Part shown: positions 5,274-47,585 of the stretch, piece after piece | Layout: each line of letters begins with the position of its first letter | How positions within the stretch are numbered: position 1 is the stretch's first letter | IMG/VR virus record: IMGVR_UViG_3300035188_001343 | Strand: one strand, 5' to 3' | Length of the DNA: 64,000 nt | Origin: an uncultured virus (IMG/VR IMGVR_UViG_3300035188_001343) | Lineage: Duplodnaviria; Heunggongvirae; Uroviricota; Caudoviricetes | Notes under the pieces: model-generated | Told to the model about the DNA's origin: nothing | What the model saw: only the letters and a program-made list of their open reading frames with translations | Databases searched by the model: none | Translations under genes and position numbers: made by a program

Positions 5274-6437
5274 ATGTTGTTGAAAGAAAAAATGATATTG
5301 ATAGAATTCATAATATTCGCAAAAAACAATATTAATAATATCGCTGAAAATCCAACAGATACGTTCATCGATAAAGTGGTTGAAATTTACCATCGCAAGA
5401 AAAATGTTGAATTTAAAAACCCACTAGCAAATGAATTTCCTAGAGCACCTAATACACTTGAATATTGGTTACACCGTGGATGGAATGAAAAAGAAGCAGA
5501 GAAAAAAAGGTGTGAAAAAATTCTCGCTAGTAGTTGCTCATTACAAGCTTTAATTGCTAAACATGGTGAAGAAAAAGGGTATCATTTGTTCACCGAAATC
5601 AATACTAAAAAATCAAATACTTTGGATGGTTTCATTAGAAGACACGGTGATGAAATAGGAAAAAAATTGTACGCTGCATATACCCTAAAAATGTCCACAC
5701 AAAATACTTTAGTTGGGATGATTGAAACTTATGGTGAAATTGAGGGTAATGAAAGATATAACACTATGATTTCTGGTAAGATACATAACTTAGAAAGTGT
5801 TATTAAGCGATATGGGGAAGAAGAAGGTAAAAAACGATACACTGCTAGTAATTTAAAAAGAAGTAAATCACACAGTTATGTGGGGTTCGTTGAAAGGTTT
5901 GGTTCTTACGCTGACCAAAAATGGGAGGAATTATCAAAAAATCGATCATATAGAACAACAGTAGATTATTATATTGAAAAATATGGGGATGATTTAGGGA
6001 GAAAAAAACATACCGATTGGTTTAAATCATCGATTGGTGGTGATTTTAGTCAAAGTTTTTCAAAAACATCTAAAATGTTATTTGAAAGTTTAAAAAATAA
6101 TGAATTTGCTCAATTTGGTTGTAATGAAGCTTTAATTGAATTAACTACAGATGAACAATCAGTTTTAAATAGGAAATTTATTCGCCCCGATTTTTTACTT
6201 GATAACAAAATAATTGAATTTTACGGAACCTATTGGCATTGTCATGAATCCATGTTTGCTGCAGATCAGATACATCCACAGTTTAATAAGACAGCAACAG
6301 ATATACGAAACTACGATTGTAAGAAAAATGAGGTGTTGAAATTGAAAGGGTTTGATGTTTTGGTTATTTGGGAACATAATTATTATGCTAACAAAGAAGG
6401 TATTATTGCACAGTGTAATGACTTCTTAAATCAATAA
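5274..6437 (+). CDS. free-standing Vsr-like (homing) endonuclease with (K/R)(Y/H)GxExG repeats
   Basis: Repeats KHGEEKG, RHGDEIG, RYGEEEG; C-terminal PDF...IEFYGTYWH...GFDVLVIWE; directly follows a split IntN. Confidence 0.8.
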   Translation: MLLKEKMILIEFIIFAKNNINNIAENPTDTFIDKVVEIYHRKKNVEFKNPLANEFPRAPNTLEYWLHRGWNEKEAEKKRCEKILASSCSLQALIAKHGEEKGYHLFTEINTKKSNTLDGFIRRHGDEIGKKLYAAYTLKMSTQNTLVGMIETYGEIEGNERYNTMISGKIHNLESVIKRYGEEEGKKRYTASNLKRSKSHSYVGFVERFGSYADQKWEELSKNRSYRTTVDYYIEKYGDDLGRKKHTDWFKSSIGGDFSQSFSKTSKMLFESLKNNEFAQFGCNEALIELTTDEQSVLNRKFIRPDFLLDNKIIEFYGTYWHCHESMFAADQIHPQFNKTATDIRNYDCKKNEVLKLKGFDVLVIWEHNYYANKEGIIAQCNDFLNQ

Positions 6438-15643: not shown

Positions 15644-15937
15644 ATGGCTAAGAAAGACACAACCACATCTACATCTAAAAGTGCCACACCTAAAAAAAAT
15701 GATTTATTCACCAAAATGAGAAAAAACATTCTTAAAAAGAATGAAGATGCAATGTTAGATTTAACGGAACCTACTGTTTGGGCATCATCTGGAAATTATG
15801 TATTAAATCATATTTTGAGTGGTAGATTTCATAGAGGTTATCCTTCTGGAAGAATTGTACAAATTTTTGGTGATTCTGGGTGTTTATTGCCACATGAAAA
15901 AATAAAAGTGTATGAATTCAAATCAAATATTGTATGA
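15644..15937 (+). CDS. uvsX: UvsX/RecA recombinase, fragment 1 plus 18-aa IntN
   Basis: SGNYVLNHILSG...GYPSGRIVQIFGDSG is the RecA N-terminus up to the first half of Walker A; then CLLPHEKIKV (block A, 15881-15934). Confidence 0.9.
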   Translation: MAKKDTTTSTSKSATPKKNDLFTKMRKNILKKNEDAMLDLTEPTVWASSGNYVLNHILSGRFHRGYPSGRIVQIFGDSGCLLPHEKIKVYEFKSNIV

Positions 15938-16000
15938 AATACTTGTTAAATTATTATAAAACTAACAATCAAAAAATAAAAAACTTTATTGGAGAACAAA

Positions 16001-17323
16001 ATGATTGAAAACAATGTTAGAGAATTAACTGATAAAGAAAAATTACTGGAATTAAAAGAATGGTATTCCTCTGATGAATTATCAAAATCCCTTGATGTTA
16101 CTGAAGAAATGCTTGGTAATTTTTTAAATGATAAAAGTTCTTTTACATTAACAAATTCTGAGAAATTGAACGATTTTTTTAATAACCATGTTCATGAAAA
16201 TTCAAAATTTGAAATGATTAAAAATGTTTATGGTTTGTGGGAAACTGATGAAAAACAATTTATGGTTGATACTCCTGATGGGTTTCAATTTGTTAGTGAA
16301 TTTATTCATAAAGATTCAAGAAGTTGCTTTGACTTAAGAACCGATAATTTTCATATTGAATGTTCGGGTGACCATTTGATTGAAACTGATAAAGGTTGGG
16401 TGAAAACTGAAGATATTGTAGTTGGTTCAAAAGTGTTAACCCGTGTTGGTTTTGAGGAAGTTAAATCAAATGCACAACTTAGTGATAGTGATGTTTACGA
16501 TATGACTGTTGAACATGATAATCATCGATATTGGGGTGGTGCCGGTATTTCATCACATAATTCTGGTAAATCTTTTCTTATGGCTAAAGCGATTGTTGAG
16601 GCTCAAAAAGAAGGTTATATGGTGGCAGTATTAGATTCGGAACAAGCGGTTTCACAGGATTATTTGAAAAAAATTGGGGTTGATTTAGACCCATCAATGT
16701 TAATGACTGTGCAGGTACAAACAGTTGAACAAACTCAAGATATGCTTCTAGAAGTTTTGGAAGGTGTTAAGGAAGAACAAGAAGCTTTAGGAAATACCAA
16801 AGAACTAAAATTATTACTGATTGTTGATTCCATTGGTATGCTTTCATCTGGAAAAGCACTAGCAAATGCTGAAGCTGGACATCACGCGGCTGATATGGGT
16901 ACTAAAGCAAAAGCATTAACCAATATGTTCAACCAAATTGTACAAAAAGTTGGTATTACTGAAACTGTTTGTTTAGTAACTAATCATGGAGCATTAGAAG
17001 TTGGAGTTATGTTCCCACAACTCAAACCAAAAGGTGGACAATGTTTAGTAGCAGGTACAAAAGTACAAACTGATAAAGGTTATAAAAATATTGAAGAAAT
17101 CCAAGTTGGTGATATGGTGAGAACACACTTGAACCAAATTAAACCTGTTGAAAAATTATTTAGTTTCGATAATCTTGATATTCTTAATTTTGAATTAGAA
17201 ACAGGACAAAACATTAAAATGTCGAAGGATCATAAAATGTTAGTTTTGCGAAATGGTGAAAAATTGTGGTTGGAAGCTCAATTTATAACTACTTATGATT
17301 CATTGTTAGCACTTGATGTTTAA
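16001..17323 (+). CDS. uvsX: UvsX/RecA recombinase, fragment 2 (IntC1-extein-IntN2)
   Basis: GGAG RBS before ATG 16001. IntC1 16001-16561 ends SSHN|SGKS. Extein has LDSEQA, Walker B LIVDSIG, MGTKAKAL, VTNH, PKGGQ. IntN2 17042-17320 starts CLVAGTKV and has block B SKDH. Confidence 0.92.
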   Translation: MIENNVRELTDKEKLLELKEWYSSDELSKSLDVTEEMLGNFLNDKSSFTLTNSEKLNDFFNNHVHENSKFEMIKNVYGLWETDEKQFMVDTPDGFQFVSEFIHKDSRSCFDLRTDNFHIECSGDHLIETDKGWVKTEDIVVGSKVLTRVGFEEVKSNAQLSDSDVYDMTVEHDNHRYWGGAGISSHNSGKSFLMAKAIVEAQKEGYMVAVLDSEQAVSQDYLKKIGVDLDPSMLMTVQVQTVEQTQDMLLEVLEGVKEEQEALGNTKELKLLLIVDSIGMLSSGKALANAEAGHHAADMGTKAKALTNMFNQIVQKVGITETVCLVTNHGALEVGVMFPQLKPKGGQCLVAGTKVQTDKGYKNIEEIQVGDMVRTHLNQIKPVEKLFSFDNLDILNFELETGQNIKMSKDHKMLVLRNGEKLWLEAQFITTYDSLLALDV

Positions 17324-17336
17324 TAATTAAATGGAT

Positions 17337-17369
17337 TGGGGTGGATATTGAAATCCACCCCATTTTTTT
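17337..17369. terminator. probable bidirectional intrinsic terminator
   Basis: TGGGGTGGAT-ATTGAA-ATCCACCCCA followed by T7; lies between convergent genes. Confidence 0.8.
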
Positions 17370-17864
17370 ATTGTACAGCCCCATATCTAGAACCAGTAAC
17401 CAACCATGTAATTGAACTGTTTCCACTTATTGATGCACCACCTGAACCACCACCTGAACCCATATCGTTGTATGATGTTTTACCACCGCCACCACCACAG
17501 ATTGCACCTGCTTGACCTGTAAATGCTGAACCGCCTGTACCTGCTGTCCTACCATATGAGTTAGAACCATTAGTTCCGTATGTCGCACCTATCCAGTTTT
17601 CAGTACCACTTCCCCATGGTGAAGCACCACCAGCACCACCTTGAGTTTGTGTACCACTGTTACCATTACCACCAGCGGCATAACCAAAACTTGTTTCCGT
17701 TCCACCTGATGCAGGTGAATTATTCGAATCGGACTGTCTAGCAGTTGTTTCTGCAGCTAAATTAGTAGTTAAAGTTGCATCTGCAGCTTGTCTCGCAGTT
17801 ACCTCATTTGCAATATTGGTAGCAACAACACTACCGATTTTTTTTTAAATATTGAATCGACCAT
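17368..17864 (-). pseudogene. frameshifted glycine-rich tail-fibre/gp38-like adhesin (165 aa if one A is added in an A9 run)
   Basis: AGGAG RBS and ATG at 17864; A9 run at 17838-17846; shifted frame reads EVTARQAADATLTTNLAAETTARQ, then Gly-rich blocks, ending GGASISGNSSITWLVTGSRYGAVQ-stop. Confidence 0.72.
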
Positions 17865-17944
17865 TTGTATCTCCTATTTAATAACTATTAAAAATCGGTA
17901 TGATTTTTTGAATGAATCCACTTGTGTGGAATATGTTATATTTA

Positions 17945-18256
17945 TCAAATAGTATCATTTTGCGGAACTAAATTTCGTTCTAAAACACCCCATTTATGTA
18001 ATCTTCTTAGTTCTGCAGAATGATCACGGCAGCAGGTTTTATTAAATCCAGCACCAATTGACACAAATTTTGTTACTTTATTACATTTTGGATGTTGACA
18101 TATATTGCTGTCTGGATGATAAAATAAATAAATTTTTGCATCTGTCGGTGTACCTTCAAAAAGTTTGGAATCCTCACATTCATTTAACCATAACCCAACG
18201 TTATGTTTGAATCCTTTTTCTTTGTTTTTTATAAAATATGTTTCAAAATTATTCAT
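17945..18256 (-). pseudogene. truncated endonuclease (N-terminal Cys-rich domain only)
   Basis: IYLFYH...CQHPKC...FVSI..GF.KTC matches the N-terminus of ORF 47103-47585; no nuclease domain follows. Confidence 0.65.
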
Positions 18257-18412
18257 TTGTTTTTTTCTCCTGAAAATAATATAGTATTATACATTAAGTG
18301 ACAATTCATCTTATTATCGAGTGATAGGCAAAAAATAAATTTTTAAGATTTTACTTTTATCTCATTTGATTGTAAAATAATAGTTAATAACCATTCACTA
18401 AAGGAGTATTTT

Positions 18413-19081
18413 ATGAACTCAAATGAGTTTTTAGTCGATTCAAATTATAAACCAGTTAAGATTAAATCTATTACCCCTGTGGCAATAGAAAAAACTTATG
18501 ATTTTCAAGTTGCTGACGATCATAGTTTTTTATTAGAAAATAATATAATTTCAAGTAATTGTATGGAATTTGTACCATCAATTTCTTTGCGTGTAACTAA
18601 AGGTAAGATTAAACCCACTGATTTGGCAGAATTAGAATATTTGTATGATGGTGGAATACCAAAACATTTGGGTGCTTTAGGGATTGTATCGAGAATTGAA
18701 TTGTATAAATCCCGATTTACCCGACCTTTTAGAAAGGTACAATTGATGATTCCATACGATTTTGGATTACCTGAATATGCGGGATTATTTGATTATCTCA
18801 AAGATAATGGTATAATTATTGAAAATGGTAGAAAAGGTTATTATAATTGTACTGAGGTACAATTTGAAAAAGATTTTACTAGAAAAGATTTTATTAAAGG
18901 TGGTTGGGCTGATTTAATTATGGAACATTTATTAGCTGAGGAAACCAAAGGTAGAATTTATGATTTTATTATGAAATCTAGTGATGATGATGCCCGAGAA
19001 AAAGAACAAGGATTAGATTCAATTGATGACTCTTACATTGAAGATGATGATATGGATGAATCGGAATTTAATGTTGAATAA
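18413..19081 (+). CDS. uvsX: UvsX/RecA recombinase, fragment 3 (IntC2 plus C-terminal extein)
   Basis: AAGGAG RBS; IntC2 18413-18559 VKIKSI...TYDFQVADDHSFLLENNIISSN|C; extein CMEFVPSISLRV, KSRFTRPF, acidic tail. Confidence 0.9.
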   Translation: MNSNEFLVDSNYKPVKIKSITPVAIEKTYDFQVADDHSFLLENNIISSNCMEFVPSISLRVTKGKIKPTDLAELEYLYDGGIPKHLGALGIVSRIELYKSRFTRPFRKVQLMIPYDFGLPEYAGLFDYLKDNGIIIENGRKGYYNCTEVQFEKDFTRKDFIKGGWADLIMEHLLAEETKGRIYDFIMKSSDDDAREKEQGLDSIDDSYIEDDDMDESEFNVE

Positions 19082-19099
19082 CCATAGTGAGAAAAAAAT

Positions 19100-21419: not shown

Positions 21420-23159
21420 ATGGCTAACTATATTGATTTTGCTTATTTAGGTAAAACCGCAGACCCAACAGGCATTAGAGTGTGGGAACAAAATTATGAA
21501 ACAGGTAAAATTGATGAGAAAGATTATGACATAAAAGATTATTTGTATTTTTACATTGATGCTACTGACGAGAACAAAATTGAAAAAAATTTAATTTCTC
21601 AAAGGGGAACAAAAGTTAAAAAAGTGGTTGCAGATAACTTTAAAGTTCTTAGAAATGGTGAATCTGCGAAAATGTTTCATAGTTTAAATCTTAATACTTA
21701 TGAGTCTGATATTGAACCCTTACATAAGGTAATGTTGGATAATTATGGAAAAGATCATCAAAAAGCCACTAATTGGAATTTAGCTTTATATGATATTGAA
21801 ACGGATGTTCGTATGGAGGATTCTTTTATGGGTATGCGAGCAAATGCAGATCGAGAGATAAACGCTATTTCTGTGTGGTATTCGAAACCAAATAAATTTT
21901 ATAATTTTACCGTTGTACCACCTATGCTGCGAGATGAATGGGATTTTGATACTATTGAAACTCGTGGTAATTTTGAGATTATCTATTTTGATAATGAAGA
22001 AGAAATGCTGGAAACATTTTTCACAGTTACAAAAAAACATGAAACTATGGCATTAGGTGCGTGGAATGGGGATTTTTTCGATACCAAGTATATTTTTGAT
22101 AGATGCAAAAATATTTGGAAAGAAAAAGGTGCTGCAGAACGAATGGGGCGGTTTACAAAAGTTAAAAAAACTAAAATCATGTTGGGTGAAAAAGAAGAAA
22201 TTTTGGTTAGACCAATTGGTATGATTTGGTACGATTGTATGGAGGCTTATAAGAAAAATGGTCCAGAATTAGAATCGTTTGCTCTAAATGCTGTAGTTGA
22301 ACATGAAAATTTGGGAAGTAAGTTAGATTTTGAAGGGTCGTTTGAAACTTTATATCACGGAAGTAGAAAAGATAGAGATAGATTTTTAGAATTAACACCA
22401 AAGAAAAAAAGAAAAAATTTGATTAAAAAATCTAATGAGATTGGAAACTCGGTTATTTCTGATTTGGGGTTATATAGCGAATGTAAAGATATGTTGAAGA
22501 TGGATACAAGCATCGAAGAATATGAATTGGAAACTCGAATTCAAATAAGTATTACTGATAGATTGGAAGAGCTTCTCAAAATGAATGAAACCAAAGAAGA
22601 TTTAGGTGATATGTTTGAGGATTTTGAACGATTTGTAGTGTATAAAAAGTTAACAGATACTTATAGACTTTTTGTTGATTATTCTAATCAGGATAGTCAA
22701 CTTTTACATGATTTAGAAATGAAGTTGGAAAAATTTAAAACTCTTATGATGTTGGCACAGTATAATGTATCATCGTTTTATGATGTATTTTCTACACTCA
22801 AACAGGTTGAACAGGGTATTACTAATTTTGCTCATTTATATAATAATAAAGTTGTTATTGATCGAGAGTATGATAAGAAAAAACAGATTTATAATAAATT
22901 TGTTGATAAAGATTTGTTACAAATCAGAATCGACAATGATACTCGTATACAACCAAATGATAATCGGAAGATAAGAGAAATAAAAACTCTTTTGGAGCAA
23001 AAAAAAATACCTGGAGCCAACGTGCTTCAACCATACGTAGGATTGATTTCTTACAATGAGGCGGAAACACCACAGTTAGCAAGAGAATTCAAATCATTAA
23101 AAAATGAATTGCGAGAAATAGATGAACAGTTAAAACAATTTGAAATGGATGAAAATTAG
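21420..23159 (+). CDS. family B DNA polymerase, N-terminal and exonuclease fragment with C-terminal coiled-coil tail
   Basis: ExoI YDIETD, ExoII WNGDFFD, ExoIII YSNQD, PGANVLQP just before motif A; ends in a heptad tail; motifs A, B and C absent. Confidence 0.9.
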   Translation: MANYIDFAYLGKTADPTGIRVWEQNYETGKIDEKDYDIKDYLYFYIDATDENKIEKNLISQRGTKVKKVVADNFKVLRNGESAKMFHSLNLNTYESDIEPLHKVMLDNYGKDHQKATNWNLALYDIETDVRMEDSFMGMRANADREINAISVWYSKPNKFYNFTVVPPMLRDEWDFDTIETRGNFEIIYFDNEEEMLETFFTVTKKHETMALGAWNGDFFDTKYIFDRCKNIWKEKGAAERMGRFTKVKKTKIMLGEKEEILVRPIGMIWYDCMEAYKKNGPELESFALNAVVEHENLGSKLDFEGSFETLYHGSRKDRDRFLELTPKKKRKNLIKKSNEIGNSVISDLGLYSECKDMLKMDTSIEEYELETRIQISITDRLEELLKMNETKEDLGDMFEDFERFVVYKKLTDTYRLFVDYSNQDSQLLHDLEMKLEKFKTLMMLAQYNVSSFYDVFSTLKQVEQGITNFAHLYNNKVVIDREYDKKKQIYNKFVDKDLLQIRIDNDTRIQPNDNRKIREIKTLLEQKKIPGANVLQPYVGLISYNEAETPQLAREFKSLKNELREIDEQLKQFEMDEN

Positions 23160-24391
23160 ATTCTCTCTTTAATTAGATTCACACATTTTTCTACCATCTG
23201 TTCTATATTTTCTTTTGTTTCATAATCCCAAATTTCGATTACAGTGAACCCTTTTTTTTCAGCAGATGCTAATTTTAATCTGTCCAATTCAAATTTTTCA
23301 TCTGCTGATTTTCCTGTCCAAGGACATCTCCATCGTTCCCATTGCTCAGTTGTTAATTTTTCTTTTGATGGGTGTACATGACTTCCATTATATTCAAAAA
23401 TTAATTTTAGTGGTAAAATAGTATAATCGAATGAATGCAGTTTTGTACCTTCTTCAATTTTGTATTCACAAGAGTTTTCAACGCCGTAAAAAATATCAGA
23501 AAAATCAATACCGTGTGCAAGTGAAAAATCAGTTAAATGTTTAAAAAATGCCAATGATTCTTTGGAAGCAATATAACCTGCATTGCTGTTTTTGTATTTT
23601 TTCCATCTGGTCAACCCTTCTTCATATCCATGAACTCTGATGAAATTCTCTTTAGTATTTGCAGATCGTTTACAAAATAGGTTGTATTTCTTTTCACCTA
23701 ATTCTGTACCATACCGGGAAATGAAATTCTCCTTACTTAATTTAGATTTTTCTTTAAATTCTACCCATTTTTGTTTTCCCAATTCTTCTCCATGCCGAAG
23801 TTTAAAATTTTCTTCGGATAGCATGCACTTTTTTTTCCATGATTTGTATTTCTTTTCACCCAATTCAACACCATGACGTTTTTGCATTTTTTCTAAAGTT
23901 TGTCCACCTCTTGTAGAAATTGCCTTGGTAAACAATTTCAACCCTTCATCATTTCCATATTTCTTAGTGAATTTTTCTAAGGTAAGCACTTTTTTTGAAT
24001 TCATTTCAGTGTATCTTCTAGATCCTTCTTCCAATCCATATTTTTCTACTTGTCCCTCTAACGTGTTACCAATACCTTTTTTTCTGTTATTATCAAGATA
24101 TTTTTTTAAACCTATCTCGTCACCATACTTTAACCTAAAATAATGTTCAGTGTTAGATTTAGTCTTTAGAAATTTTTTAAATCGGACTACTAAATTTTCT
24201 TCTAGGGTAGTGGTAGATATTAGCATACAATGAAACGAATATCTTTGTTCTTGTGTTAAATTTCCTCCCAATACTAAGTTGACGTCTTTTAATCTTTCAA
24301 TCCCAATGTTTTCAAAAGTAATCCCATTCTCCTTAAAAAACTTATTGGTGAACGCTCTTTTCGTTTTTAAATTTAATTCTGAATATTTCAT
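23156..24391 (-). CDS. free-standing Vsr-like (homing) endonuclease
   Basis: KYGxExG repeats; FDY...FEYNGSHVH...GFTVIEIWD; paralogue of 5274-6437; abuts the polymerase break point. Confidence 0.8.
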   Translation of the reverse strand: MKYSELNLKTKRAFTNKFFKENGITFENIGIERLKDVNLVLGGNLTQEQRYSFHCMLISTTTLEENLVVRFKKFLKTKSNTEHYFRLKYGDEIGLKKYLDNNRKKGIGNTLEGQVEKYGLEEGSRRYTEMNSKKVLTLEKFTKKYGNDEGLKLFTKAISTRGGQTLEKMQKRHGVELGEKKYKSWKKKCMLSEENFKLRHGEELGKQKWVEFKEKSKLSKENFISRYGTELGEKKYNLFCKRSANTKENFIRVHGYEEGLTRWKKYKNSNAGYIASKESLAFFKHLTDFSLAHGIDFSDIFYGVENSCEYKIEEGTKLHSFDYTILPLKLIFEYNGSHVHPSKEKLTTEQWERWRCPWTGKSADEKFELDRLKLASAEKKGFTVIEIWDYETKENIEQMVEKCVNLIKERI

Positions 24392-35234: not shown

Positions 35235-36257
35235 ATGAATGTAAATGAAATTTTTGAAAAATATAACACTGATGAATCATTGACCTATGAACAGTTTGTA
35301 ACACCTAGTTTTTCTGGTGGTCATAATAAATGGATAAATCGGTATCCAAAAACAAATGTGGTTTTTAAAATTTTAGAACGTGCATGTTTGAAAAATGATA
35401 TTGATTATAATTGGATAACAGATTTTTTTGGTGGTAATGTATCCACTTATGTTTTAGGTATAAGTCAGCAAGATGCAAATAAATTAGGAAAACAAGTATC
35501 AATTAGTTGGGATGAATTCACTGAAAAATACTGTGACGATGATGCTTCTGAAACAACGATTACTGCTGATGAAATAAACACATACCGAAAACCAAAATTG
35601 GTGGATTATGTAACTGTAAAAAATTTAAAAGCCCAAAAAATACCAATGTCAACTTCAATATATGAATTTATTAATAAACCTTTAACCGATGGTCAAATAT
35701 CAATTTCTGATTTACAAATGACTGTTAGGGATTTTTTGATGAATTTTGCGAGTTTTCGGTCTATATCAAAAACACAATATAACATTTTTACATCTGTCAA
35801 TGGTAAAGGTGGTATTTTTGGTAGAAATGGGGATTTGAAGGCAATTGAACCTGTAGAAGTAGGAGAATTTTTATTCCAGGTAAGTATCGATGAGTTGAAC
35901 TATAAACGTGATGTAGATGAAATTCAAAAATTGTGGGAGTGGAGAACAGGTCGCAATGAATTGCGTGGAAAATACGAGGAACATTTTGGGTACGATGTAA
36001 AGCATATGAGTCATTTGTTTAGATTACTATTAGGTGCTATTAATATTCTCGAAACGGGTGAGTATCACCCTAGATTAAAAGGTGAAAACCTCAAATTTGT
36101 TAGAAATATTTTACGTGGTCAATATACTTACAATTATTTAATTGAATATACCTCGGTGTTGGAAGAAAAGATGGAAGAGGCTTATAAAACCTCTACTTTA
36201 CCAGAAACAGCTAATCATAAGAAAGCCAACAAACTACTTTTGGAATTATCATACTAA
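35235..36257 (+). CDS. RlaP/NrdC.11-like nucleotidyltransferase, C-terminal fragment
   Basis: GHNKWIN; WEWRTGRNELRGKYEEHFGYDVKHMSHLFRLL; IRxG.Y-like ILRGQY; STLPE. Confidence 0.8.
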   Translation: MNVNEIFEKYNTDESLTYEQFVTPSFSGGHNKWINRYPKTNVVFKILERACLKNDIDYNWITDFFGGNVSTYVLGISQQDANKLGKQVSISWDEFTEKYCDDDASETTITADEINTYRKPKLVDYVTVKNLKAQKIPMSTSIYEFINKPLTDGQISISDLQMTVRDFLMNFASFRSISKTQYNIFTSVNGKGGIFGRNGDLKAIEPVEVGEFLFQVSIDELNYKRDVDEIQKLWEWRTGRNELRGKYEEHFGYDVKHMSHLFRLLLGAINILETGEYHPRLKGENLKFVRNILRGQYTYNYLIEYTSVLEEKMEEAYKTSTLPETANHKKANKLLLELSY

Positions 36258-36336
36258 GTTGTTGATAAATATTTGTGATTATTTTGAAATTAAAACAACC
36301 AATTGGGGGTGTCACCCCATATTTTTAGAGAGATTT

Positions 36337-36837
36337 ATGAAAGTTAATGAGTTATTAGAAAAAGAGACAGTAAAAGGATTGTATGCTGCGGTAAAATTTT
36401 CCAAGGATACAATTGATAGAATTTTAAAGTATTGTGGGGATAAGGACATTCCAAATATTTTAAACCCTGAAGATTTCCATAGTACATTATGTTATTCTCG
36501 CAAACTTGTTCCTGATTTTAAACCAGTAGATGAATTATTTGAAGAGGGTAAACCAAAAAAATTTGAAATTTGGGAAAGTCCACCAAATGCGTTTAAAGAG
36601 GAAAAAACCTTTTGTTTGGTATTAAAATATTCATCATCTTATATGGAAAATAGATTTAAAGAAATTATGGATATGGGTGCAACTTATGATTATGATGAGT
36701 ATAAACCCCATTTAACCATTAGTTATGATGTTGGGGAAGGGTTTGATGTTAGTAAATTGGTTGATATTGATGCTATCGCACCTTTAGATATTATTGGTGA
36801 GTATTCGGAAGAGTTGGATTTGGATAAAAACTATTAA
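36337..36837 (+). CDS. acb1: Acb1 / T4 gp57B-like 2H phosphoesterase (anti-CBASS nuclease family)
   Basis: GLYAAVKFS, FHSTLCYSR and GATYDYDEYKPHLTISYD (two HxT motifs); ATG 36337 after GAGAG; TAAATA at 36266. Confidence 0.85.
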   Translation: MKVNELLEKETVKGLYAAVKFSKDTIDRILKYCGDKDIPNILNPEDFHSTLCYSRKLVPDFKPVDELFEEGKPKKFEIWESPPNAFKEEKTFCLVLKYSSSYMENRFKEIMDMGATYDYDEYKPHLTISYDVGEGFDVSKLVDIDAIAPLDIIGEYSEELDLDKNY

Positions 36838-37230: not shown

Positions 37231-38289
37231 TTATTTAATGATAAGTTTAAAATTATAACCCAATAATTTAACTGCGTCAAATTTTGCATTGTTTCTATTT
37301 AAACAAACATTTAAAGTGTATTTCGATTTTACCTCAATAATTATGTTTTCATTTGGAATGAAAATATCTGGGTAGTATCTACTAGTTATACCTTCAAATT
37401 CATAATATATAACCGGCATGTTATTTGCATCGGTGACAATATCTTCAAACTGATAACCTGAATTTTCTAAGTCGTTTAAAACCATAGGTTCATATCCTTG
37501 AACAATGGAAACTTGACCAGTTTTCCAACTATATTCCTTTTTACGAAAACAGTTTTTTCTGTTCTTTTCAAAAACGGTGGTTGATTTCATTGGATGTATA
37601 ACACCATATTTTTTAAGGTTGGTTTCCTGTGTCTTATTTAATAATTGTTGGCATTGTGATGGATGATCAACACCATATATTTCATTCATTTTTTTAGTAA
37701 GGTGCGATGAACCAAAAATGAAATCACAGCCGTACTTTGTTTGATTGGTAGCTTTAATCTTGTTTCGAATTTTCAAATTTTGGATTGGTCTTCTCACACC
37801 ATATTTCTCTAAATTTGAATTTTCCACTTTTTCTTTAATTGACGCACATTGTGATGGGTTCTCAAAACCAAACACTGTCATTGAGGTATTTTTAAATTTG
37901 TTTTGTATGTTTTCGTTTTGCATAGGAAATTCAACACCATATTTTTCAAGATTTGATTTCTTAATTTTTTCCTTGACTGAATTCAGTTTTGAAACATTGT
38001 CAACACCATACTTAACGATATTATTCACTTTTCTGGTATGTTCTCGACAACAACCACTGGTAAGAATTGTTTGCTTTGTGAAAATTCGTAAGTTTTCACA
38101 TCCTGATAATCCACATCTTGGCACAGAACTGAAACCATGTTTAAGTAAGTAGAAAATCTCATGTATAGTATAATCCACAAAATTATATTGTTTAGCCTTT
38201 AAAGATAGGTAATCTTTCAATTCTTTGGAGAATTGTGCTGGTTTTGGTTTAATTTTTTCAAATTCTATTTTTAACATTTTTTCCATCAT
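37231..38289 (-). CDS. free-standing PD-(D/E)xK endonuclease with KYGVxxxxQ repeats
   Basis: Cys-rich N-terminus, KYGVDNVSK and KYGVEFPMQ repeats, QGYEP, YYPDIFIPNENIIIEVKS. Confidence 0.8.
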   Translation of the reverse strand: MMEKMLKIEFEKIKPKPAQFSKELKDYLSLKAKQYNFVDYTIHEIFYLLKHGFSSVPRCGLSGCENLRIFTKQTILTSGCCREHTRKVNNIVKYGVDNVSKLNSVKEKIKKSNLEKYGVEFPMQNENIQNKFKNTSMTVFGFENPSQCASIKEKVENSNLEKYGVRRPIQNLKIRNKIKATNQTKYGCDFIFGSSHLTKKMNEIYGVDHPSQCQQLLNKTQETNLKKYGVIHPMKSTTVFEKNRKNCFRKKEYSWKTGQVSIVQGYEPMVLNDLENSGYQFEDIVTDANNMPVIYYEFEGITSRYYPDIFIPNENIIIEVKSKYTLNVCLNRNNAKFDAVKLLGYNFKLIIK

Positions 38290-38380: not shown

Positions 38381-39865
38381 ATGGCTAAAGAATATAATGA
38401 ACCAAAAGAATTTGATGTATCCACTTTAACCGAACAAGCAATTGCAGAAGCATTAGCGGAGGTACAATCAAAATGGCATGATTTAGGTAATGGTATTAAA
38501 GCAAAATCTAAATTAACCGATAAAATGGAAGAAAAATTAACGTCATTAGTTTCAGCTGCAAAATCTGGTAATTGGAAACAACAGTTAGAAGAAGCTATTG
38601 TACAGATGATTACTTATAATTATTCTACACAGGAATCTCTACTGTGGTATGGACATCTGATTTGCCAATGTGAAATTAAGCGTGATTTATCTATGCCATC
38701 ACCTGCTGGTGTTAGATTTATGTTTAATAAATATGAACTGTTTATTAATCCACTATTATTTGGTTTATATACCACAGATGAACAAATCGCCATTTTAAAA
38801 CATGAAATGTTGCATATCATCAACATGCATATTGTTCGTCAAAAAGATAGAGAACATAAAAAATGGAATTTTTCAACGGACATTTCTATCAACCAGTTGA
38901 TTAAAAATATCCCTGTCGATGGTTTACAACCCGAAACCTTTAAATTTGATAAAAATCTTAATGCTGAACAATACTATGAATTATTTCCTATCGGTTTTGG
39001 TGGTTCGGGAGAAAATGATGATGACAGTGAAAACCAAAGTAATGCGGATACAAGCGGCAATGGTAGTGGAAATTCAACTGGTAAAGGTGATGAAATAGTT
39101 GATAATAATAAAAAATTAAAGGACATGATTTCATCTGCGTTACACCAAGTAAATTCGGGAATGGTCGGTGATCATTCAAAATGGCAGGAATCTGAAGGTG
39201 ATGCTGAAGCAGCAAAAGAAATTGCGAGACAAATGGCAGATACCGCAACACAAAAAAGTCGTGGATTGATGCCATCTGAGTGTTCGGATGCGATTACGAT
39301 GTTGAAAATGCAGGAACAGGTTAATTGGAAAAAAGAACTTAGAAAAATTGTTGGAAATAGAAAAGCGTTTTCTAAATTAACTATTAAGAAAAATGATAGA
39401 AGATTTCCCGATAGAAAAGATTTGCGTGGAAAAACCAATGATCATATTGCTGATATTTTGGTTGTTTTAGATGTTTCTGGATCTATGAGTGACGAGGAAT
39501 TACTATACGGTTTGAATGAAACTCGGGCTATTGCAGAAAAAGCTGGTGCTGCAGTTAAGATTATGCAAGTTGATACCGAACCCAAGTTGATAGAAAATTT
39601 TGACCCAAAATCTCGAAATTTTAACCGTCGTGGTTGTGGGGGAACTTATTTGTATCCTGCGATTGAATATGTGATGAAAAATAAAATTAGATTTGATGCA
39701 GTTGTTTTGGTAACTGATGGATATATAGAAACCACATGGGATTCTAAAATTCCAAGAGTTCCATTTATTTGGCTTGTTACTCAAGATAAAAATAATCTTG
39801 CACTTGATATTTCAACCTATCCAAGAATGAAATCACATACGTTGATTATTGAAAAGAAAAAGTAG
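38381..39865 (+). CDS. HExxH metallopeptidase-like plus VWA domain protein (DUF2201-like)
   Basis: LKHEMLH, WNFSTDISIN, MIDAS motif DVSGSM, GCGGT, VTDG. Confidence 0.85.
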   Translation: MAKEYNEPKEFDVSTLTEQAIAEALAEVQSKWHDLGNGIKAKSKLTDKMEEKLTSLVSAAKSGNWKQQLEEAIVQMITYNYSTQESLLWYGHLICQCEIKRDLSMPSPAGVRFMFNKYELFINPLLFGLYTTDEQIAILKHEMLHIINMHIVRQKDREHKKWNFSTDISINQLIKNIPVDGLQPETFKFDKNLNAEQYYELFPIGFGGSGENDDDSENQSNADTSGNGSGNSTGKGDEIVDNNKKLKDMISSALHQVNSGMVGDHSKWQESEGDAEAAKEIARQMADTATQKSRGLMPSECSDAITMLKMQEQVNWKKELRKIVGNRKAFSKLTIKKNDRRFPDRKDLRGKTNDHIADILVVLDVSGSMSDEELLYGLNETRAIAEKAGAAVKIMQVDTEPKLIENFDPKSRNFNRRGCGGTYLYPAIEYVMKNKIRFDAVVLVTDGYIETTWDSKIPRVPFIWLVTQDKNNLALDISTYPRMKSHTLIIEKKK

Positions 39866-39915: not shown

Positions 39916-41010
39916 TTATGAATTGTGTAAATAATAATTACTCATTACTTCGTATCTACTCACCGGTTCACCGGTACGTTTTAAAATGAGAAATTCAAAA
40001 TCAAAACCTGCATTTTTTGATGCTTGTTCCTTTAAAAGATTAATTTTTAAGTATTTTGTGAAGGTATATTCACTTTTTACCTCGATGAATTTGTTTTCTT
40101 TGGGAATGAAAATATCAGTAACATACTGATGTTTGTTATTTTCACCATAATGAATTTTAGGGATGTTTTTTCTTTCTAAAATTAAGTCATTTTCATCATA
40201 TGTTTGCAAAAGAATATCTAATGCTAAATTTTCATATCCTTGAATTTTCACTAACTTACCACTAGGTAGAGTATAATCTTTCCACCTATACTTTTGTTGT
40301 TTCTCAAAAATTGCAATATCGTGTGATGGATTTCTTACACCATAGTTCTTAAAGCACGTTTTTTCTTTCTGAATTTTAACAGATAACAATTGTGATGGGT
40401 TGTCGACACCATATTTTTTAGCGAATGTAACTTTTGATTTTTCTTTCACTGTTTCCAATTGAAAAACATTGTCAACACCATATTTTTTCTGATTATTTTC
40501 TTTAAGGCATAACATTCTTGATGTGGCATTTACTTTGTTTTTCACAGAAATTTTGTTTTTGATTTCTTGGGAATAACTAGGGTTCACGACACCATATTTT
40601 TTTAACATGGTTTGTTCCTTTCTTAACTGGATTTCTTTCTTCTTTTCATTCGACTTAGAATTGAAGGTATTTTTAGCCTTATCAGCTATTTCTTTGTTTT
40701 GTTTCACATTTTCACATCCATATTTGATTAAGTTAGTCAATCGATAATTGTGATCTCTACAACATCCAAGTGAATATCCTCTCGAACCTTGTTTACCAAA
40801 TGACGCAAATTCGTTACAATTATGGTATTGGCATTTTGGTTTTTTCTCAACATGATTTTTTAAACAGAACATAGCTTCTTTTCTAGCAGTACACCAAGGA
40901 AATTGTTCTTCTAAATATAGTATTTCTACCACTGAGAGATTTTTAAATCTTTTCTTACGAGATAGATTTTCCAAATTTAGCATTTTCACCCACCCTATTG
41001 TATAATTCAA
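39916..41010 (-). CDS. free-standing PD-(D/E)xK endonuclease with KYGV repeats
   Basis: KYGVVNPS and KYGVDNPSQ repeats; QGYEN; YVTDIFIPKENKFIEVKS. Confidence 0.8.
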   Translation of the reverse strand: MNYTIGWVKMLNLENLSRKKRFKNLSVVEILYLEEQFPWCTARKEAMFCLKNHVEKKPKCQYHNCNEFASFGKQGSRGYSLGCCRDHNYRLTNLIKYGCENVKQNKEIADKAKNTFNSKSNEKKKEIQLRKEQTMLKKYGVVNPSYSQEIKNKISVKNKVNATSRMLCLKENNQKKYGVDNVFQLETVKEKSKVTFAKKYGVDNPSQLLSVKIQKEKTCFKNYGVRNPSHDIAIFEKQQKYRWKDYTLPSGKLVKIQGYENLALDILLQTYDENDLILERKNIPKIHYGENNKHQYVTDIFIPKENKFIEVKSEYTFTKYLKINLLKEQASKNAGFDFEFLILKRTGEPVSRYEVMSNYYLHNS

Positions 41011-41047: not shown

Positions 41048-42022
41048 ATGACAGATTATACCAAATGGAATACATTTTTATCTTGTGATGTGGGATATGG
41101 TGATATTAAAATTTCTCTAAAAAAAGAGGATGGAACTTTGTTGATAGCTAAGTTCCCGTCTGCTATTAGTTCCGTCAATCCAAAAAAATTTGGTGCGGGT
41201 GAAGCAGTTGAGTTTGAAGGTGCACACTACTTAATTGGTGAACAGGCCATAAACTATAAACCAGTTGAAATGAATGATTATGAAACATTAGAAAAATATG
41301 CACCTTTGTTGGTTTATCAGGCATTTAGAAAGTATGGTGAATTTGATACTCTTGTTACTGGATTGTCAATTAGGCAGGAAGATAAATCCCAGGATTTCAA
41401 AGACAGATTATCAAATTTTGTTATTGATGGACAGGAATACAACATTGATGTTAAATTATTACCTCAAGGTATTGGTGCAAAAATTGTCGTTGAAAAACAA
41501 TTTGGTGATATTTCCAATTATTTAGTTTGTGATGGTGGTTTTAATACTGTTGATTTAGTACCTGTATTTGATGGAAAAGCAGATATTCATTCAGTAGATG
41601 CTTTAGAAAACAGAGGTATTATTGAAGTTATTAACGAACTAATTGATTATATTGCCGGTGAATATAATATAGAACTAACACCAAAAGAAGCAAAGTATGC
41701 TCTCGATAACAAGAGTATTGAAATTTATGGTAAAGAAATTGATTTGACATTAGAAATCAACAAAATAACAAAAGAATATTCAAAAGAATTAATTCGACAA
41801 ATTGAAAGAAAATTCAAAAAATCATGGCATAAGTTTCAAAAAGTTATTATTGTTGGTGGTTTATCTCACTTTGTTGATACTACAGTATATGAACATCTAG
41901 TAACTGTTCCTAAAGGAGAGTATTATAATGTTATTGGATTCCAAAAATTCGCAGAAGAAAGATTAACAGATGTTTCACCTACCAAACCAAAAGTGGTTAG
42001 ACGTAGAGTATCAAATCTCTAA
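41048..42022 (+). CDS. parM: ParM/StbA-family actin-like ATPase
   Basis: Phosphate-1 DVGYGDIK, VTGL, PQG, phosphate-2 DGGFNTVD, adenosine IVGG, NVIGF. Confidence 0.82.
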   Translation: MTDYTKWNTFLSCDVGYGDIKISLKKEDGTLLIAKFPSAISSVNPKKFGAGEAVEFEGAHYLIGEQAINYKPVEMNDYETLEKYAPLLVYQAFRKYGEFDTLVTGLSIRQEDKSQDFKDRLSNFVIDGQEYNIDVKLLPQGIGAKIVVEKQFGDISNYLVCDGGFNTVDLVPVFDGKADIHSVDALENRGIIEVINELIDYIAGEYNIELTPKEAKYALDNKSIEIYGKEIDLTLEINKITKEYSKELIRQIERKFKKSWHKFQKVIIVGGLSHFVDTTVYEHLVTVPKGEYYNVIGFQKFAEERLTDVSPTKPKVVRRRVSNL

Positions 42023-46539: not shown

Positions 46540-47585
46540 TCATCTTATTTCTAACTTAAATACATACCCCAATTTTTTTACAGCATCAAATTTAGCCTGA
46601 TTTTTTTCAAAATCGATGTCTAATGTCCAATGTGATTTTACTTCAATAATTATATTTTCTGTTGGAATGAAAAAATCGGGATAATATCTTCTTCTCCGAC
46701 CTTTAAAAAAATACCAAATTTCAGGCATATCATTTTGACAGGTTTTGATTTCATCATAGGAATACCCCATATCCTCTAATTCTTTCAAAACTATGGGTTC
46801 AAATCCCTGAATATATGATATTTCCCCTGTTTTCCACATATATTCTTTTTTTCTAAATGCTGCCTGTGCGGATTTTACGAATACTGCTGTAGTTTGCATA
46901 GAACTGACAACACCATATTTTTCTAAATTTGATTCTTTAATTTTTTCTTGTATTTTGTCGGATTGAAATGGAAACGCATAACCGTATTTTTCCACATTTT
47001 CTTTTTTTAATTTCAACATGAATTCGGGATGTTGACTGAGATGCTCAACCCCATATTTTTTCAAATTAGATTCTTTTATTTTTTCCGATTTCATGGGGTT
47101 TTCTACACCATGATTCTGTAGATTCGTTTTTTCTTCTTTTCTTTAATACTGTCAAGTTGACTTACATTTTCTACCCCATATTTTTTTAAGTTTGACTGTT
47201 TTATTTTTTCGGAGATACCGGAAATTTGTGAGGGATATTCAACACCATATTTTTTTAAATTTGTTTTTTTCACCTGTGTTCTAAATTCGGGCAACTGACT
47301 TTTGTATTTGACACCATATTTTCTTAATGATGTTAGTTCCACAGAATGTTTTGTTGAACATGTTTCTTTAAAACCTCTGGTAATGGAAACAAATTCAGTT
47401 TGATTGTCACATTCTGGATGTTGACATTTATTTTCAACGTGATGATAAAACAAATATATTTCTAACTCTGTTATATTTTGTGTATAATTTTTGTAATCAT
47501 CACAATTGTCTTTCCATATTTTTAAATTTTTTTCAAACCAATTTGTCTTGGGTTTAAAAAAATATTTTTCATAATTTTGGTTCAT
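46540..47585 (-). pseudogene. KYGV-repeat PD-(D/E)xK endonuclease interrupted by a 1-nt frameshift
   Basis: Adding one A to the A6 run at 47127-47132 gives KEKKKKTNLQNHGVENPMKS and fuses both ORFs; YYPDFFIPTENIIIEVKS is in the downstream part. Confidence 0.75.

What the first reader, a model, noticed from the sequence alone, without database searches (positions are those of the whole stretch)
15644..19081. UvsX/RecA encoded in three genes joined by two different split inteins
Seen: removing the intein halves restores Walker A exactly (GDSG|SGKS) and the GG motif region (PKGGQ|CMEFVPS). Intein 1 is split 18 aa / 187 aa and intein 2 is split 93 aa / 49 aa. Each ORF has its own RBS. The gap between fragments 1 and 2 has three in-frame stops, and the gap between fragments 2 and 3 holds a terminator and two antisense genes. 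Inference: natural three-piece trans-splicing with two orthogonal inteins, so recombinase activity depends on at least two transcripts.
Basis: partly seen in the sequence, partly recalled or inferred. Interest (0 to 1): 0.85.

Follow-up and report, generated by a model that had tools for sequence, protein, structure and literature searches.

The report
Phage recombinase gene in three pieces
A large uncultured lake phage encodes its only RecA-type recombinase (UvsX) as three separate proteins, which two unrelated split inteins should stitch into one normal enzyme; the parts are known kinds, and only their use together in one natural gene is unusual.

Summary
ORF1, ORF2 and ORF3 carry UvsX residues 1-79, 80-239 and 240-412. 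Against intein-free relatives they align end to end with no residue lost or gained.

Intein 1 sits in the P-loop (GDSG|SGKS). It is split 18 + 187 aa and is a relative of the known VidaL atypically split intein (PDB 6vgv), with an extra helix-turn-helix-like domain. Intein 2 (KPKGGQ|C) is a canonical 93 + 49 aa split. The two inteins are not detectably related in register.

Relatives in metagenomes show every state:
- no intein
- only intein 1
- only intein 2
- both inteins
- contiguous forms

Some relatives carry homing-endonuclease genes in the gaps. Here gap 1 is empty. Gap 2 holds a truncated endonuclease remnant and a frameshifted glycine-rich ORF.

All intein pieces are under purifying selection and keep their catalytic residues. 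No other RecA gene was found in the 306-kb record. Splicing itself is inferred, not shown.

This scan has noted three-piece UvsX genes before on other DNA (e1-5910491, e1-6049024, e1-5957281). I found no paper describing a natural case. Verdict: real, a new variant of a known kind, moderately interesting.

The parts
15644..15880 (+). UvsX extein 1 (79 aa), ending in the first half of the Walker A loop, ...FGDSG
   Evidence: PHROG 97 UvsX, residues 1-80 to profile 1-84. Aligns to residues 4-65 of intein-free P0037.
15881..15937 (+). IntN1: 18-aa N-fragment of intein 1 (CLLPHEKIKVYEFKSNIV) plus the TGA stop
   Evidence: 13 of 14 non-self hits of the ORF1 search are the same piece, ending 17-22 aa after Cys1. 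It is contiguous with IntC1 in 6 relatives.
15938..16000 (+). Gap 1: 63 nt with two further in-frame TAA stops and GGAG (15991-15994) before ATG 16001. No endonuclease gene here.
   Evidence: Independent contig X6 record 15 spans it unchanged. Relatives L002 and L003 carry a ~408-aa same-strand endonuclease gene at this place.
16001..16246 (+). IntC1 N-terminal helical insert (residues 1-82), XRE-type HTH-like
   Evidence: Model helices 11-19, 24-31, 35-42, 50-67 and 73-82. Pfam HTH_3 E 0.0054, below cut-off. Foldseek top hits are all Cro/XRE-type HTH proteins, but E is only 0.18-0.65. The insert is absent from the contiguous relative P0022.
16247..16561 (+). IntC1 HINT core, ending ...GISSHN
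   Evidence: phmmer to VidaL 6vgv E 3.3e-16, residues 73-190 to 28-145. Foldseek 6vgv E 6.9e-11, TM 0.79, rmsd 1.5 A. Block B SGDH and the terminal SSHN are invariant in 21 sequences.
16562..17041 (+). UvsX extein 2 (160 aa): SGKS... to ...KPKGGQ, the RecA ATPase core
   Evidence: Pfam RecA E 2.8e-11. PHROG 97 E 2.6e-27. Aligns to P0037 66-225.
17042..17323 (+). IntN2: 93-aa N-fragment of intein 2 (CLVAGTKVQTDKG...) plus stop
   Evidence: Pfam Hint_2 E 1.2e-9 (over cut-off) and Intein_splicing E 2.5e-7, below cut-off. Weak match to the gp41-1 intein, E 0.002. Cys1 and the block-B His are invariant in 12 sequences.
17337..17372 (+). Terminator-like hairpin (10 bp, 6 G-C) followed by a T run, 13 nt after the ORF2 stop
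17365..17864 (-). Glycine-rich antisense ORF, broken by a -1 frameshift at the A9 run (17838-17846). Cargo in gap 2, not part of the recombinase.
   Evidence: The run length is reproduced in independent contigs X3 record 10 and X6 record 18. No Pfam or PHROG family.
17945..18256 (-). Truncated remnant (103 aa) of a DUF7487-type free-standing homing endonuclease
   Evidence: About 50% identical over residues 1-99 to the N-termini of antisense 415-420-aa ORFs at the same place in L002, L005 and L006. Those ORFs hit Pfam DUF7487 at E 6e-103 and PHROG 'homing endonuclease'.
18413..18559 (+). IntC2: 49-aa C-fragment of intein 2, ending ...NNIISSN
   Evidence: 25 other IntC2-extein-3 pieces start at the same position and share the ...DDHSFLL.NN[IV][IV]SSN motif.
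18560..19081 (+). UvsX extein 3 (173 aa, CMEFVPS...) plus stop
   Evidence: PHROG 97, residues 88-216 to profile 363-494. Aligns to P0037 228-386.

Best explanation
The phage's single uvsX gene has been invaded at two sites by two unrelated inteins, and both are now split. Three polypeptides are made:
- ORF1: extein 1 plus an 18-aa IntN1.
- ORF2: IntC1 (187 aa, with a helix-turn-helix-like insert), extein 2 and IntN2 (93 aa).
- ORF3: IntC2 (49 aa) plus extein 3.

ORF1 and ORF2 are probably co-transcribed, because the gap is 63 nt and has no hairpin. ORF3 lies behind a terminator-like hairpin and two antisense ORFs and needs its own promoter.

After translation, the short IntN1 peptide completes the VidaL-like HINT fold of IntC1. 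Class-1 splicing (Cys1, SGDH, SSHN, Ser+1) then rebuilds the Walker A loop GDSG-SGKS. Independently, IntN2 and IntC2 associate like a canonical split intein and rebuild KPKGGQ-CMEFVPS through Cys1, SKDH, SSN and Cys+1. The product is a 412-aa UvsX.

Cross-reaction is unlikely. The fragments belong to different intein families, and the wrong pairings would leave out or duplicate most of the fold.

The splits are best explained as relics of homing-endonuclease genes that inserted into the inteins. The one in gap 1 has been lost. The one in gap 2 is truncated.

What is shown: the anatomy, contiguity, homology, conservation and population polymorphism. What is inferred: splicing, orthogonality, transcript structure and the history.
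For: Contiguity against intein-free relatives is exact at both junctions. The alignment shows FGDSG-SGKS and KPKGGQ-SCEFVPS in P0037.

Architectures among the 94 hits of the ORF2 search:
- 30 intein-free
- 14 IntC1-ext2-ext3
- 13 ext1-ext2-IntN2
- 9 middle pieces like ours, including our own
- 6 with a contiguous intein 1 plus IntN2
- 3 single mixed forms: P0068 (both inteins contiguous), P0075 and P0076
- 19 other or partial

Separate end pieces exist in numbers. 13 of 14 non-self ORF1-search hits are ext1-IntN1 pieces. 25 of 41 non-self ORF3-search hits are IntC2-ext3 pieces.

Catalytic residues are invariant or nearly so. Pairwise dN/dS of the intein pieces is 0.09-0.35. The exception is the helical insert against L003, at 0.93 over 48 codons. 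dS is near saturation throughout.

Intein 1 matches VidaL by sequence (E 3.3e-16) and by fold (TM 0.79, rmsd 1.5 A). The VidaL chain carries the same C-extein, SGK.

Only 1 RecA-family match was found in the 306-kb record. The hairpin follows ORF2. Relatives carry endonuclease genes in both gaps. Independent metagenome contigs reproduce the broken layout.
Against: No protein or splicing data exist for this locus.

Transcription is not shown. Exact contigs from two RNA libraries of one sample cover 16335-16923 and 18900-19091, but these are assembled contigs and may derive from DNA in the library.

General sigma-70-type promoter matches are not above chance (21 against 22.0 +/- 4.6). The conserved block before ORF3 is not enriched in the window.

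IntN2 and IntC2 show no overall charge complementarity (both net -3).

The virus record is estimated at 85% complete, so a second recombinase gene cannot be excluded.

Six relatives keep intein 1 contiguous, so the split is not required for function.
Confidence: 0.8

Rival explanations
1. Decaying gene: the uvsX of this phage is a pseudogene broken by mobile elements, and the pieces are no longer joined or used.
For: The endonuclease in gap 2 is truncated and the neighbouring ORF is frameshifted, so this locus does accumulate damage. ORF1 and ORF2 lie in one frame, separated only by three stops, as a recently broken contiguous intein would look. Contiguous versions exist.
Against: The same start of the middle piece, and the same 17-22-aa IntN1 ends, recur in relatives 63-80% identical. 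All catalytic residues are kept. dN/dS is 0.06-0.35 for exteins and intein pieces. Each piece has a ribosome-binding site. No other RecA match exists in the record.
Confidence: 0.08
2. Non-covalent assembly: the intein halves serve only as docking domains that hold the three fragments together without splicing, as described for a fragmented phage ribonucleotide reductase (PMC3045599, abstract seen in the listing).
For: There is a precedent for fragment assembly by domains derived from a mobile element (listing).
Against: Intein 1 interrupts the Walker A loop itself. An unspliced complex would carry about 205 foreign residues inside the ATP-binding motif. The nucleophiles, the block-B His and the terminal Asn are all conserved, which docking alone would not require.
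Confidence: 0.05
3. Intein 1 is in effect contiguous: ribosomes read through or bypass the three stops of the 63-nt gap, or the phage uses another code, so only two polypeptides are made.
For: ORF1 and ORF2 are in the same frame. Six relatives have a contiguous intein 1 with a short linker at this place.
Against: Three stops of two kinds (TGA and 2 x TAA) would all have to be read through. Table 11 gives long, well-formed ORFs across the window. GGAG-N6-ATG sits at exactly the start used by relatives. In L002 and L003 a whole endonuclease gene lies between the halves, so those are certainly separate.
Confidence: 0.02

Closest known systems
VidaL atypically split intein (PDB 6vgv/6vgw; 16-aa IntN, split at the S1 site after beta-strand 2, as stated in passages of PMC13014065; from recall it comes from a Lake Vida metagenome uvsX-type locus, Burton et al. 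2020, a paper not held)
   Same: Homologous HINT core: 33% identity, phmmer E 3.3e-16, TM 0.79. A very short IntN (18 aa here). Cys1. The same C-extein SGK of a P-loop.
   Different: IntC1 here is 187 aa because a ~60-70-aa helix-turn-helix-like domain is inserted just after the split point. Here the intein works beside a second split intein in the same protein.
Fractured genes of Dassa et al. 2009 (PMC2677866, passages read): phage and bacterial DNA-metabolism genes broken by a split intein, with a free-standing homing-endonuclease gene between the halves
   Same: A DNA-metabolism enzyme gene broken by split inteins. Relatives L002 and L003 have a same-strand endonuclease gene (weak DUF559/Vsr-like signal, PHROG 22677) between IntN1 and IntC1. 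Our gap 1 without an endonuclease parallels their gp41-7 locus.
   Different: The passages I read list one split intein per host gene and do not list UvsX as a fractured host; UvsX appears there only as a neighbouring ORF. Here there are two split inteins in one gene, giving three pieces. The gap-2 endonuclease is on the opposite strand, of the DUF7487 type, and truncated.
gp41-1 and other canonical split inteins (PDB 6qaz)
   Same: Intein 2 has the canonical split, about 90 + 50 aa, at the usual endonuclease-insertion point, with Cys1 and a C-terminal Asn. Weak sequence match, E 0.002.
   Different: Different host protein and site (KPKGGQ|S/C of UvsX). The penultimate residue is Ser. The +1 residue is Ser in 21 and Cys in 5 of the 26 pieces.
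Engineered three-segment ligation with two orthogonal split inteins (tandem protein trans-splicing; mentioned in passages of PMC13014065 and in the reference list of PMC11766414)
   Same: Three polypeptides joined in a fixed order by two split inteins that do not cross-react.
   Different: Those are laboratory designs. This one is encoded by a natural phage gene and recurs in relatives.
Contiguous RecA/RadA inteins (Mtu RecA intein, PDB 2in0/3ifj; Pho RadA intein, 4e2t)
   Same: Inteins in RecA-family recombinases. They are structural matches of the IntC1 model (ranks 3-8, 29, 39, 43).
   Different: Those are cis-splicing. From recall, the mycobacterial RecA inteins sit at other sites and the RadA intein in the P-loop; I did not test the sites here.

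Membership tests
RecA/UvsX recombinase (host protein) | RecA ATPase core with Walker A GxxxxGK[ST], recognised by family profiles | tested here: met
   Pfam RecA E 2.8e-11, over cut-off. PHROG 97 'UvsX-like recombinase' hits all three ORFs in profile order 1-84, 83-239 and 363-494. Walker A is GDSG|SGKS across junction 1.
RecA/UvsX recombinase (host protein) | The pieces, with inteins removed, align without gap or overlap to uninterrupted homologues | tested here: met
   P0037 residues 4-65, 66-225 and 228-386. P0033 and P0048 show ORF3 residue 50 mapping to 226.
Class-1 intein (HINT splicing domain), intein 1 | Cys/Ser at position 1, block B (T/S)xxH, C-terminal HN, and +1 Ser/Thr/Cys | tested here: met
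   Cys1 (nearly invariant). SGDH, SSHN and Ser/Thr+1 (S122, D124, H125, H186 and N187 invariant in 21 sequences).
Class-1 intein (HINT splicing domain), intein 1 | HINT fold | tested here: met
   AlphaFold model, mean pLDDT 85.9. 52 PDB matches at E <= 0.001, and every match listed is an intein or intein-like (BIL) domain.
Class-1 intein (HINT splicing domain), intein 2 | Cys1, block-B His, C-terminal Asn, +1 nucleophile | tested here: met
   C348 and H411 are invariant in 12 sequences. ...SSN|[SC] occurs in all 26 IntC2 pieces. Pfam Hint_2 is over its cut-off.
Any intein | Protein splicing actually occurs | not testable with these tools
   Needs expression and mass spectrometry.
VidaL-type atypically split intein | Natural split close to the N-terminus (IntN about 15-37 aa), encoded as two ORFs | tested here: met
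   IntN1 is 18 aa, followed by stops, an RBS and a new ATG. It is 17-22 aa in 13 relatives. The range of known lengths is taken from passages of PMC13014065.
VidaL-type atypically split intein | Sequence and structure homology to VidaL | tested here: met
   E 3.3e-16 over 118 residues. Foldseek rank 1, 33% identity, TM 0.79.
Fractured gene sensu Dassa 2009 | Free-standing homing-endonuclease gene between the two intein halves, on the same strand | tested here: not met
   Gap 1 is 63 nt with no ORF. Gap 2 holds only a 103-aa N-terminal remnant, on the opposite strand. The feature is met for gap 1 in relatives L002 and L003. Our locus is best called an endonuclease-less or decayed derivative.
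DUF7487 homing endonuclease (gap-2 ORF 17945-18256) | Presence of the DUF7487 nuclease-type domain | tested here: not met
   The 103-aa ORF has no Pfam hit. It matches only residues 1-99 of the 415-420-aa relatives, whose DUF7487 domain begins near residue 194.

The most novel reading that the evidence does not exclude
Splitting is not just tolerated damage but a control device. The last piece of the recombinase is made from a separate transcript, and the large fragment of intein 1 carries a DNA-binding-type HTH domain. Maturation of UvsX by two orthogonal trans-splicing reactions would then be timed by the infection programme, or triggered by DNA, as is known for ssDNA-activated splicing of the archaeal RadA intein (passage in PMC10663303). 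This would be a naturally evolved, one-pot, three-fragment protein ligation system with an 18-residue tag.
Probability: 0.12. Interest if true: 0.8.

Novelty: new variant of a known kind. Interest (0 to 1): 0.55.

Why it matters
Split inteins are core tools for protein ligation, and orthogonal pairs that work side by side are sought after. This locus and its relatives offer a pair that evolution has already required to work together in one protein, without cross-reaction. One member has an 18-residue N-fragment, short enough for peptide synthesis.

The family also captures, within one gene of one phage lineage, every stage of the proposed intein life cycle:
- an empty site
- a contiguous intein
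- an intein split by an endonuclease gene
- a split intein left behind after the endonuclease is lost

This makes the origin of split inteins directly comparable across alleles. In the papers held here I found three-fragment trans-splicing described only as an engineered method.

Tried and rejected
- blastn of the locus against GenBank phages found no match.
- Two scans of viral contigs, one with the protein and one with an alignment, found no relatives.
- Complex prediction of IntC1 (1-200) with the ORF1 tail (55-97) gave 'no answer', score 0.01. This is no evidence either way.
- The ESM Atlas look-up of the helical insert gave no usable hit.
- Conserved block TTGTAAAATAA about 35 nt before ORF3, shared with L005 and L006. 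It is not enriched in the window (18 matches against 17.1 expected), so I do not call it a promoter.
- The general sigma-70 scan is not above shuffles.
- RNA-library contigs (X23, X24) match ORF2 and the end of ORF3 exactly. Being contigs, they cannot show transcription, strand or transcript ends.
- Parts of the locus without cover in runs X3 and X6 say nothing.
- A check for overall opposite charge between IntN2 and IntC2 found none.
- I asked whether other antisense DUF7487 genes in the window (37231-38289, 39916-41010) mark further three-piece genes. Their neighbours are unrelated genes (Acb1, a metallopeptidase-like protein, an actin-like protein), so they do not.
- I asked whether the PolB-exo ORF 21420-23159 and the ORF after its antisense endonuclease-like gene form a split-intein pair. 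No intein motif was seen.
- Earlier-findings look-ups by sequence and by place returned nothing.
- Literature: six full-text searches found no natural gene with two split inteins. The library lacks most subscription journals. Burton et al. 2020 is not held, so prior description elsewhere is possible.


Full report
**Context.** The window is bases 225534-289533 of a 306,333-base virus record, estimated 85% complete. G+C is about 29%. Near-identical DNA occurs in lake-water and freshwater metagenome runs from many studies. A profile search of the whole record finds one RecA-family match, the locus studied here.

**Observation.** Three plus-strand ORFs are present as described.

| ORF | Coordinates | Content |
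|---|---|---|
| ORF1 | 15644-15937 | 97 aa, ends ...FGDSG then CLLPHEKIKVYEFKSNIV |
| ORF2 | ATG 16001 to 17323 | 187 aa ending GISSHN, then SGKS...KPKGGQ (160 aa), then 93 aa starting CLVAGTK |
| ORF3 | 18413-19081 | 49 aa ending NNIISSN, then CMEFVPS... (173 aa) |

- ATG 16001, not TTG 15989, is the likely ORF2 start. GGAG lies 6 nt before it, and relatives start at the same residue.
- ORF1 and ORF2 are in one frame and are separated by TGA, TAA and TAA within a 63-nt gap.
- The 1089-nt gap before ORF3 begins with a 10-bp hairpin and a T run.
- An independent 2016 metagenome contig spans gap 1 with no difference, so the break is not an artefact of one assembly (X6 record 15).

**The host protein is UvsX and the pieces are contiguous.** PHROG 97 (UvsX-like recombinase) matches the three ORFs in order, at profile positions 1-84, 83-239 and 363-494. 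Pfam RecA matches ORF2. A search of 5.8 billion proteins with ORF2 gave 94 hits. BLAST of the three ORFs against the 30 intein-free hits shows exact abutment. In P0037, for example, ORF1 18-79 maps to 4-65, ORF2 188-347 to 66-225 and ORF3 52-210 to 228-386. ORF3 residue 50 maps to 226 in P0033 and P0048. The intein-free sequence reads FGDSGSGKS and KPKGGQSCEFVPS.

**Intein 1.**
- The IntC1 core matches the solved VidaL intein (6vgv): phmmer E 3.3e-16, residues 73-190 to 28-145.
- An AlphaFold model of ORF2 1-195 (pLDDT 85.9) has 6vgv as its best structural match: E 6.9e-11, TM 0.79, rmsd 1.5 A, 33% identity.
- The VidaL chain ends ...SHA-SGK, the same P-loop C-extein.
- VidaL is a known natural atypically split intein with a 16-aa IntN, split after strand beta-2. 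Natural IntN fragments of 15-37 aa are on record (passages of PMC13014065).
- Our IntN1 is 18 aa. In 13 relatives it is 17-22 aa, with consensus CL[LIV]P.E.IK[VI]Y.
- What differs from VidaL is a helical insert of about 60-70 aa at the start of IntC1. It models as 4-5 helices. It gives a sub-threshold Pfam HTH_3 hit (E 0.0054). Its best Foldseek matches are all Cro/XRE-type HTH proteins, but at non-significant E values of 0.18-0.65. I call it HTH-like, not proven.
- The insert is absent from the contiguous relative P0022.

**Intein 2.** This is a canonical split of 93 + 49 aa. It has a Pfam Hint_2 hit over cut-off and a sub-threshold Intein_splicing hit, and a weak match to the gp41-1 intein (E 0.002). 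Cys1 and the block-B His are invariant in 12 relatives. All 26 IntC2 pieces end ...SSN, followed by Ser (21) or Cys (5, including ours). Intein 1 and intein 2 do not align in register. The only BLAST matches are an off-register 42-residue stretch, which I read as the internal pseudo-symmetry of the fold, and 29% over 35 residues at E 0.05.

**Population picture.** The 94 ORF2-search hits fall into these classes:

| Architecture | Hits |
|---|---|
| Intein-free | 30 |
| IntC1-ext2-ext3 (only intein 1, split) | 14 |
| ext1-ext2-IntN2 (only intein 2, split) | 13 |
| IntC1-ext2-IntN2, middle piece (our own plus 8 others, 36-78% identical) | 9 |
| Contiguous intein 1 plus IntN2 | 6 |
| Single mixed forms (P0068 with both inteins contiguous, P0075, P0076) | 3 |
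| Other or partial | 19 |

- The ORF1 search gave 15 hits: our own, 13 true N-pieces and 1 intein-free fragment.
- The ORF3 search gave 42 hits: our own, 25 IntC2-ext3 pieces, 2 truncated intein-free and 14 full-length intein-free.
- P0102, P0003 and P0122 all list a longest contig of 53,730 bases. This is consistent with another complete three-piece locus, but I could not check the contig.

**DNA of relatives.** The single metagenome scan matched 107 stretches, of which 10 encode relatives.
- L007-L011 have an uninterrupted uvsX. The same downstream genes follow it in L007, L009 and L011.
- L004-L006 have only the split intein 2.
- L005 and L006 carry a 420-aa antisense ORF in the gap. It hits Pfam DUF7487 (E 6e-103) and PHROG 'homing endonuclease'.
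- L002 has the middle piece flanked upstream by the end of a same-strand endonuclease-like ORF and downstream by the antisense DUF7487 ORF.
- L003 has ext1-IntN1, then a 408-aa same-strand ORF (PHROG 22677, weak DUF559), then IntC1.
- Both gaps can therefore hold endonuclease genes. In our window gap 1 is empty. The 103-aa antisense ORF in gap 2 equals only residues 1-99 of the DUF7487 protein, at about 50% identity. It is a remnant.
- The other antisense ORF (17365-17864) is glycine-rich, has no family, and is broken by a -1 frameshift at an A9 run. Two independent runs reproduce that run length.

**Selection.** Pairwise Nei-Gojobori estimates against L002-L005 are as follows:

| Segment | dN/dS |
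|---|---|
| Exteins | 0.06-0.25 |
| IntN1 (15 codons) | 0.09 |
| IntC1 core | 0.14-0.15 |
| IntN2 | 0.12-0.21 |
| IntC2 | 0.22-0.35 |
| Helical insert vs L002 | 0.19 |
| Helical insert vs L003 (48 codons aligned) | 0.93 |

dS is 0.6-2.9, near saturation, so the ratios are rough. The intein pieces are clearly not neutral.

**Mechanism.** Shown: the anatomy, contiguity, family membership, conservation and polymorphism. Inferred:
- ORF1 and ORF2 share a transcript.
- ORF3 has its own transcript, behind the hairpin and the convergent antisense ORFs.
- Two independent class-1 trans-splicing reactions give a 412-aa UvsX.
- Orthogonality follows from unrelated sequences and incompatible split positions.

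RNA-library contigs match ORF2 (16335-16923) and the end of ORF3 (18900-19091) exactly, but they cannot prove transcription. The complex prediction gave no verdict.

**Novelty.**
- Split inteins, atypical splits, VidaL relatives and endonuclease-fractured phage genes are all known (PMC2677866, PMC13014065 and PMC11766414, passages read).
- In the passages of Dassa 2009 that I read, each fractured gene has one split intein, and UvsX appears only as a neighbour.
- Six full-text searches found three-fragment splicing only as an engineered method. The library is incomplete and the VidaL source papers were not available.
- Earlier notes of this scan report three-piece UvsX genes in three other genomes and VidaL-like two-piece ones in five more. 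By sequence, none is a close relative of this window. I did not test those notes.
- I rate this a real, well-supported new variant of a known kind.

Noticed in passing
window 17365-17864 (-): Glycine-rich ORF with RBS and ATG at 17864. It stops after 22 codons, and a 155-aa open frame continues in the -1 frame from an A9 run (17838-17846). Two independent metagenome runs reproduce the run length, so this is either a real pseudogene or a slippage site. N-terminal repeat-like matches lie elsewhere in the genome.
   Followed up: partly
own genome G000:C1 about 64.4-65.3 kb, 108.5-110.1 kb, 117.5 kb, 159.5 kb, 169.7 kb: Eight further matches to Pfam Intein_splicing outside uvsX, three of them over the cut-off and some with stops inside. 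The phage appears rich in inteins and possibly in other split genes.
   Followed up: no
window 37231-38289 (-), 39916-41010 (-), 46540-47585 (-, broken): Further DUF7487 homing-endonuclease-like genes, lying antisense between unrelated genes. Two more sit elsewhere in the genome, near 73.4 kb and 119 kb.
   Followed up: partly
window 5274-6437 (+) and 23156-24391 (-): Two ORFs of PHROG 22677, the family of the endonuclease-like gene that sits between the intein-1 halves in relative L003. The second lies antisense directly after a family-B DNA polymerase exonuclease-domain ORF (21420-23159). No intein motifs were seen there.
   Followed up: partly
window 36142-36837 (+): Pfam Acb1 (anti-CBASS nuclease) hit at E 1.4e-34. 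An actin-like ALP/MreB-like protein lies at 41048-42022, and a DUF2201 metallopeptidase/VWA-like protein at 38381-39865.
   Followed up: no
L004 5952-6362 (+): In one relative the intein-2 gap holds an unrelated 136-aa ORF (weak DUF6934) instead of the endonuclease, so the gap acts as a landing site for varied cargo.
   Followed up: no
L002 192-1646: The middle piece of this relative is 484 aa, with a ~45-residue extension after IntN2. Its third piece was not found before the contig ends.
   Followed up: no
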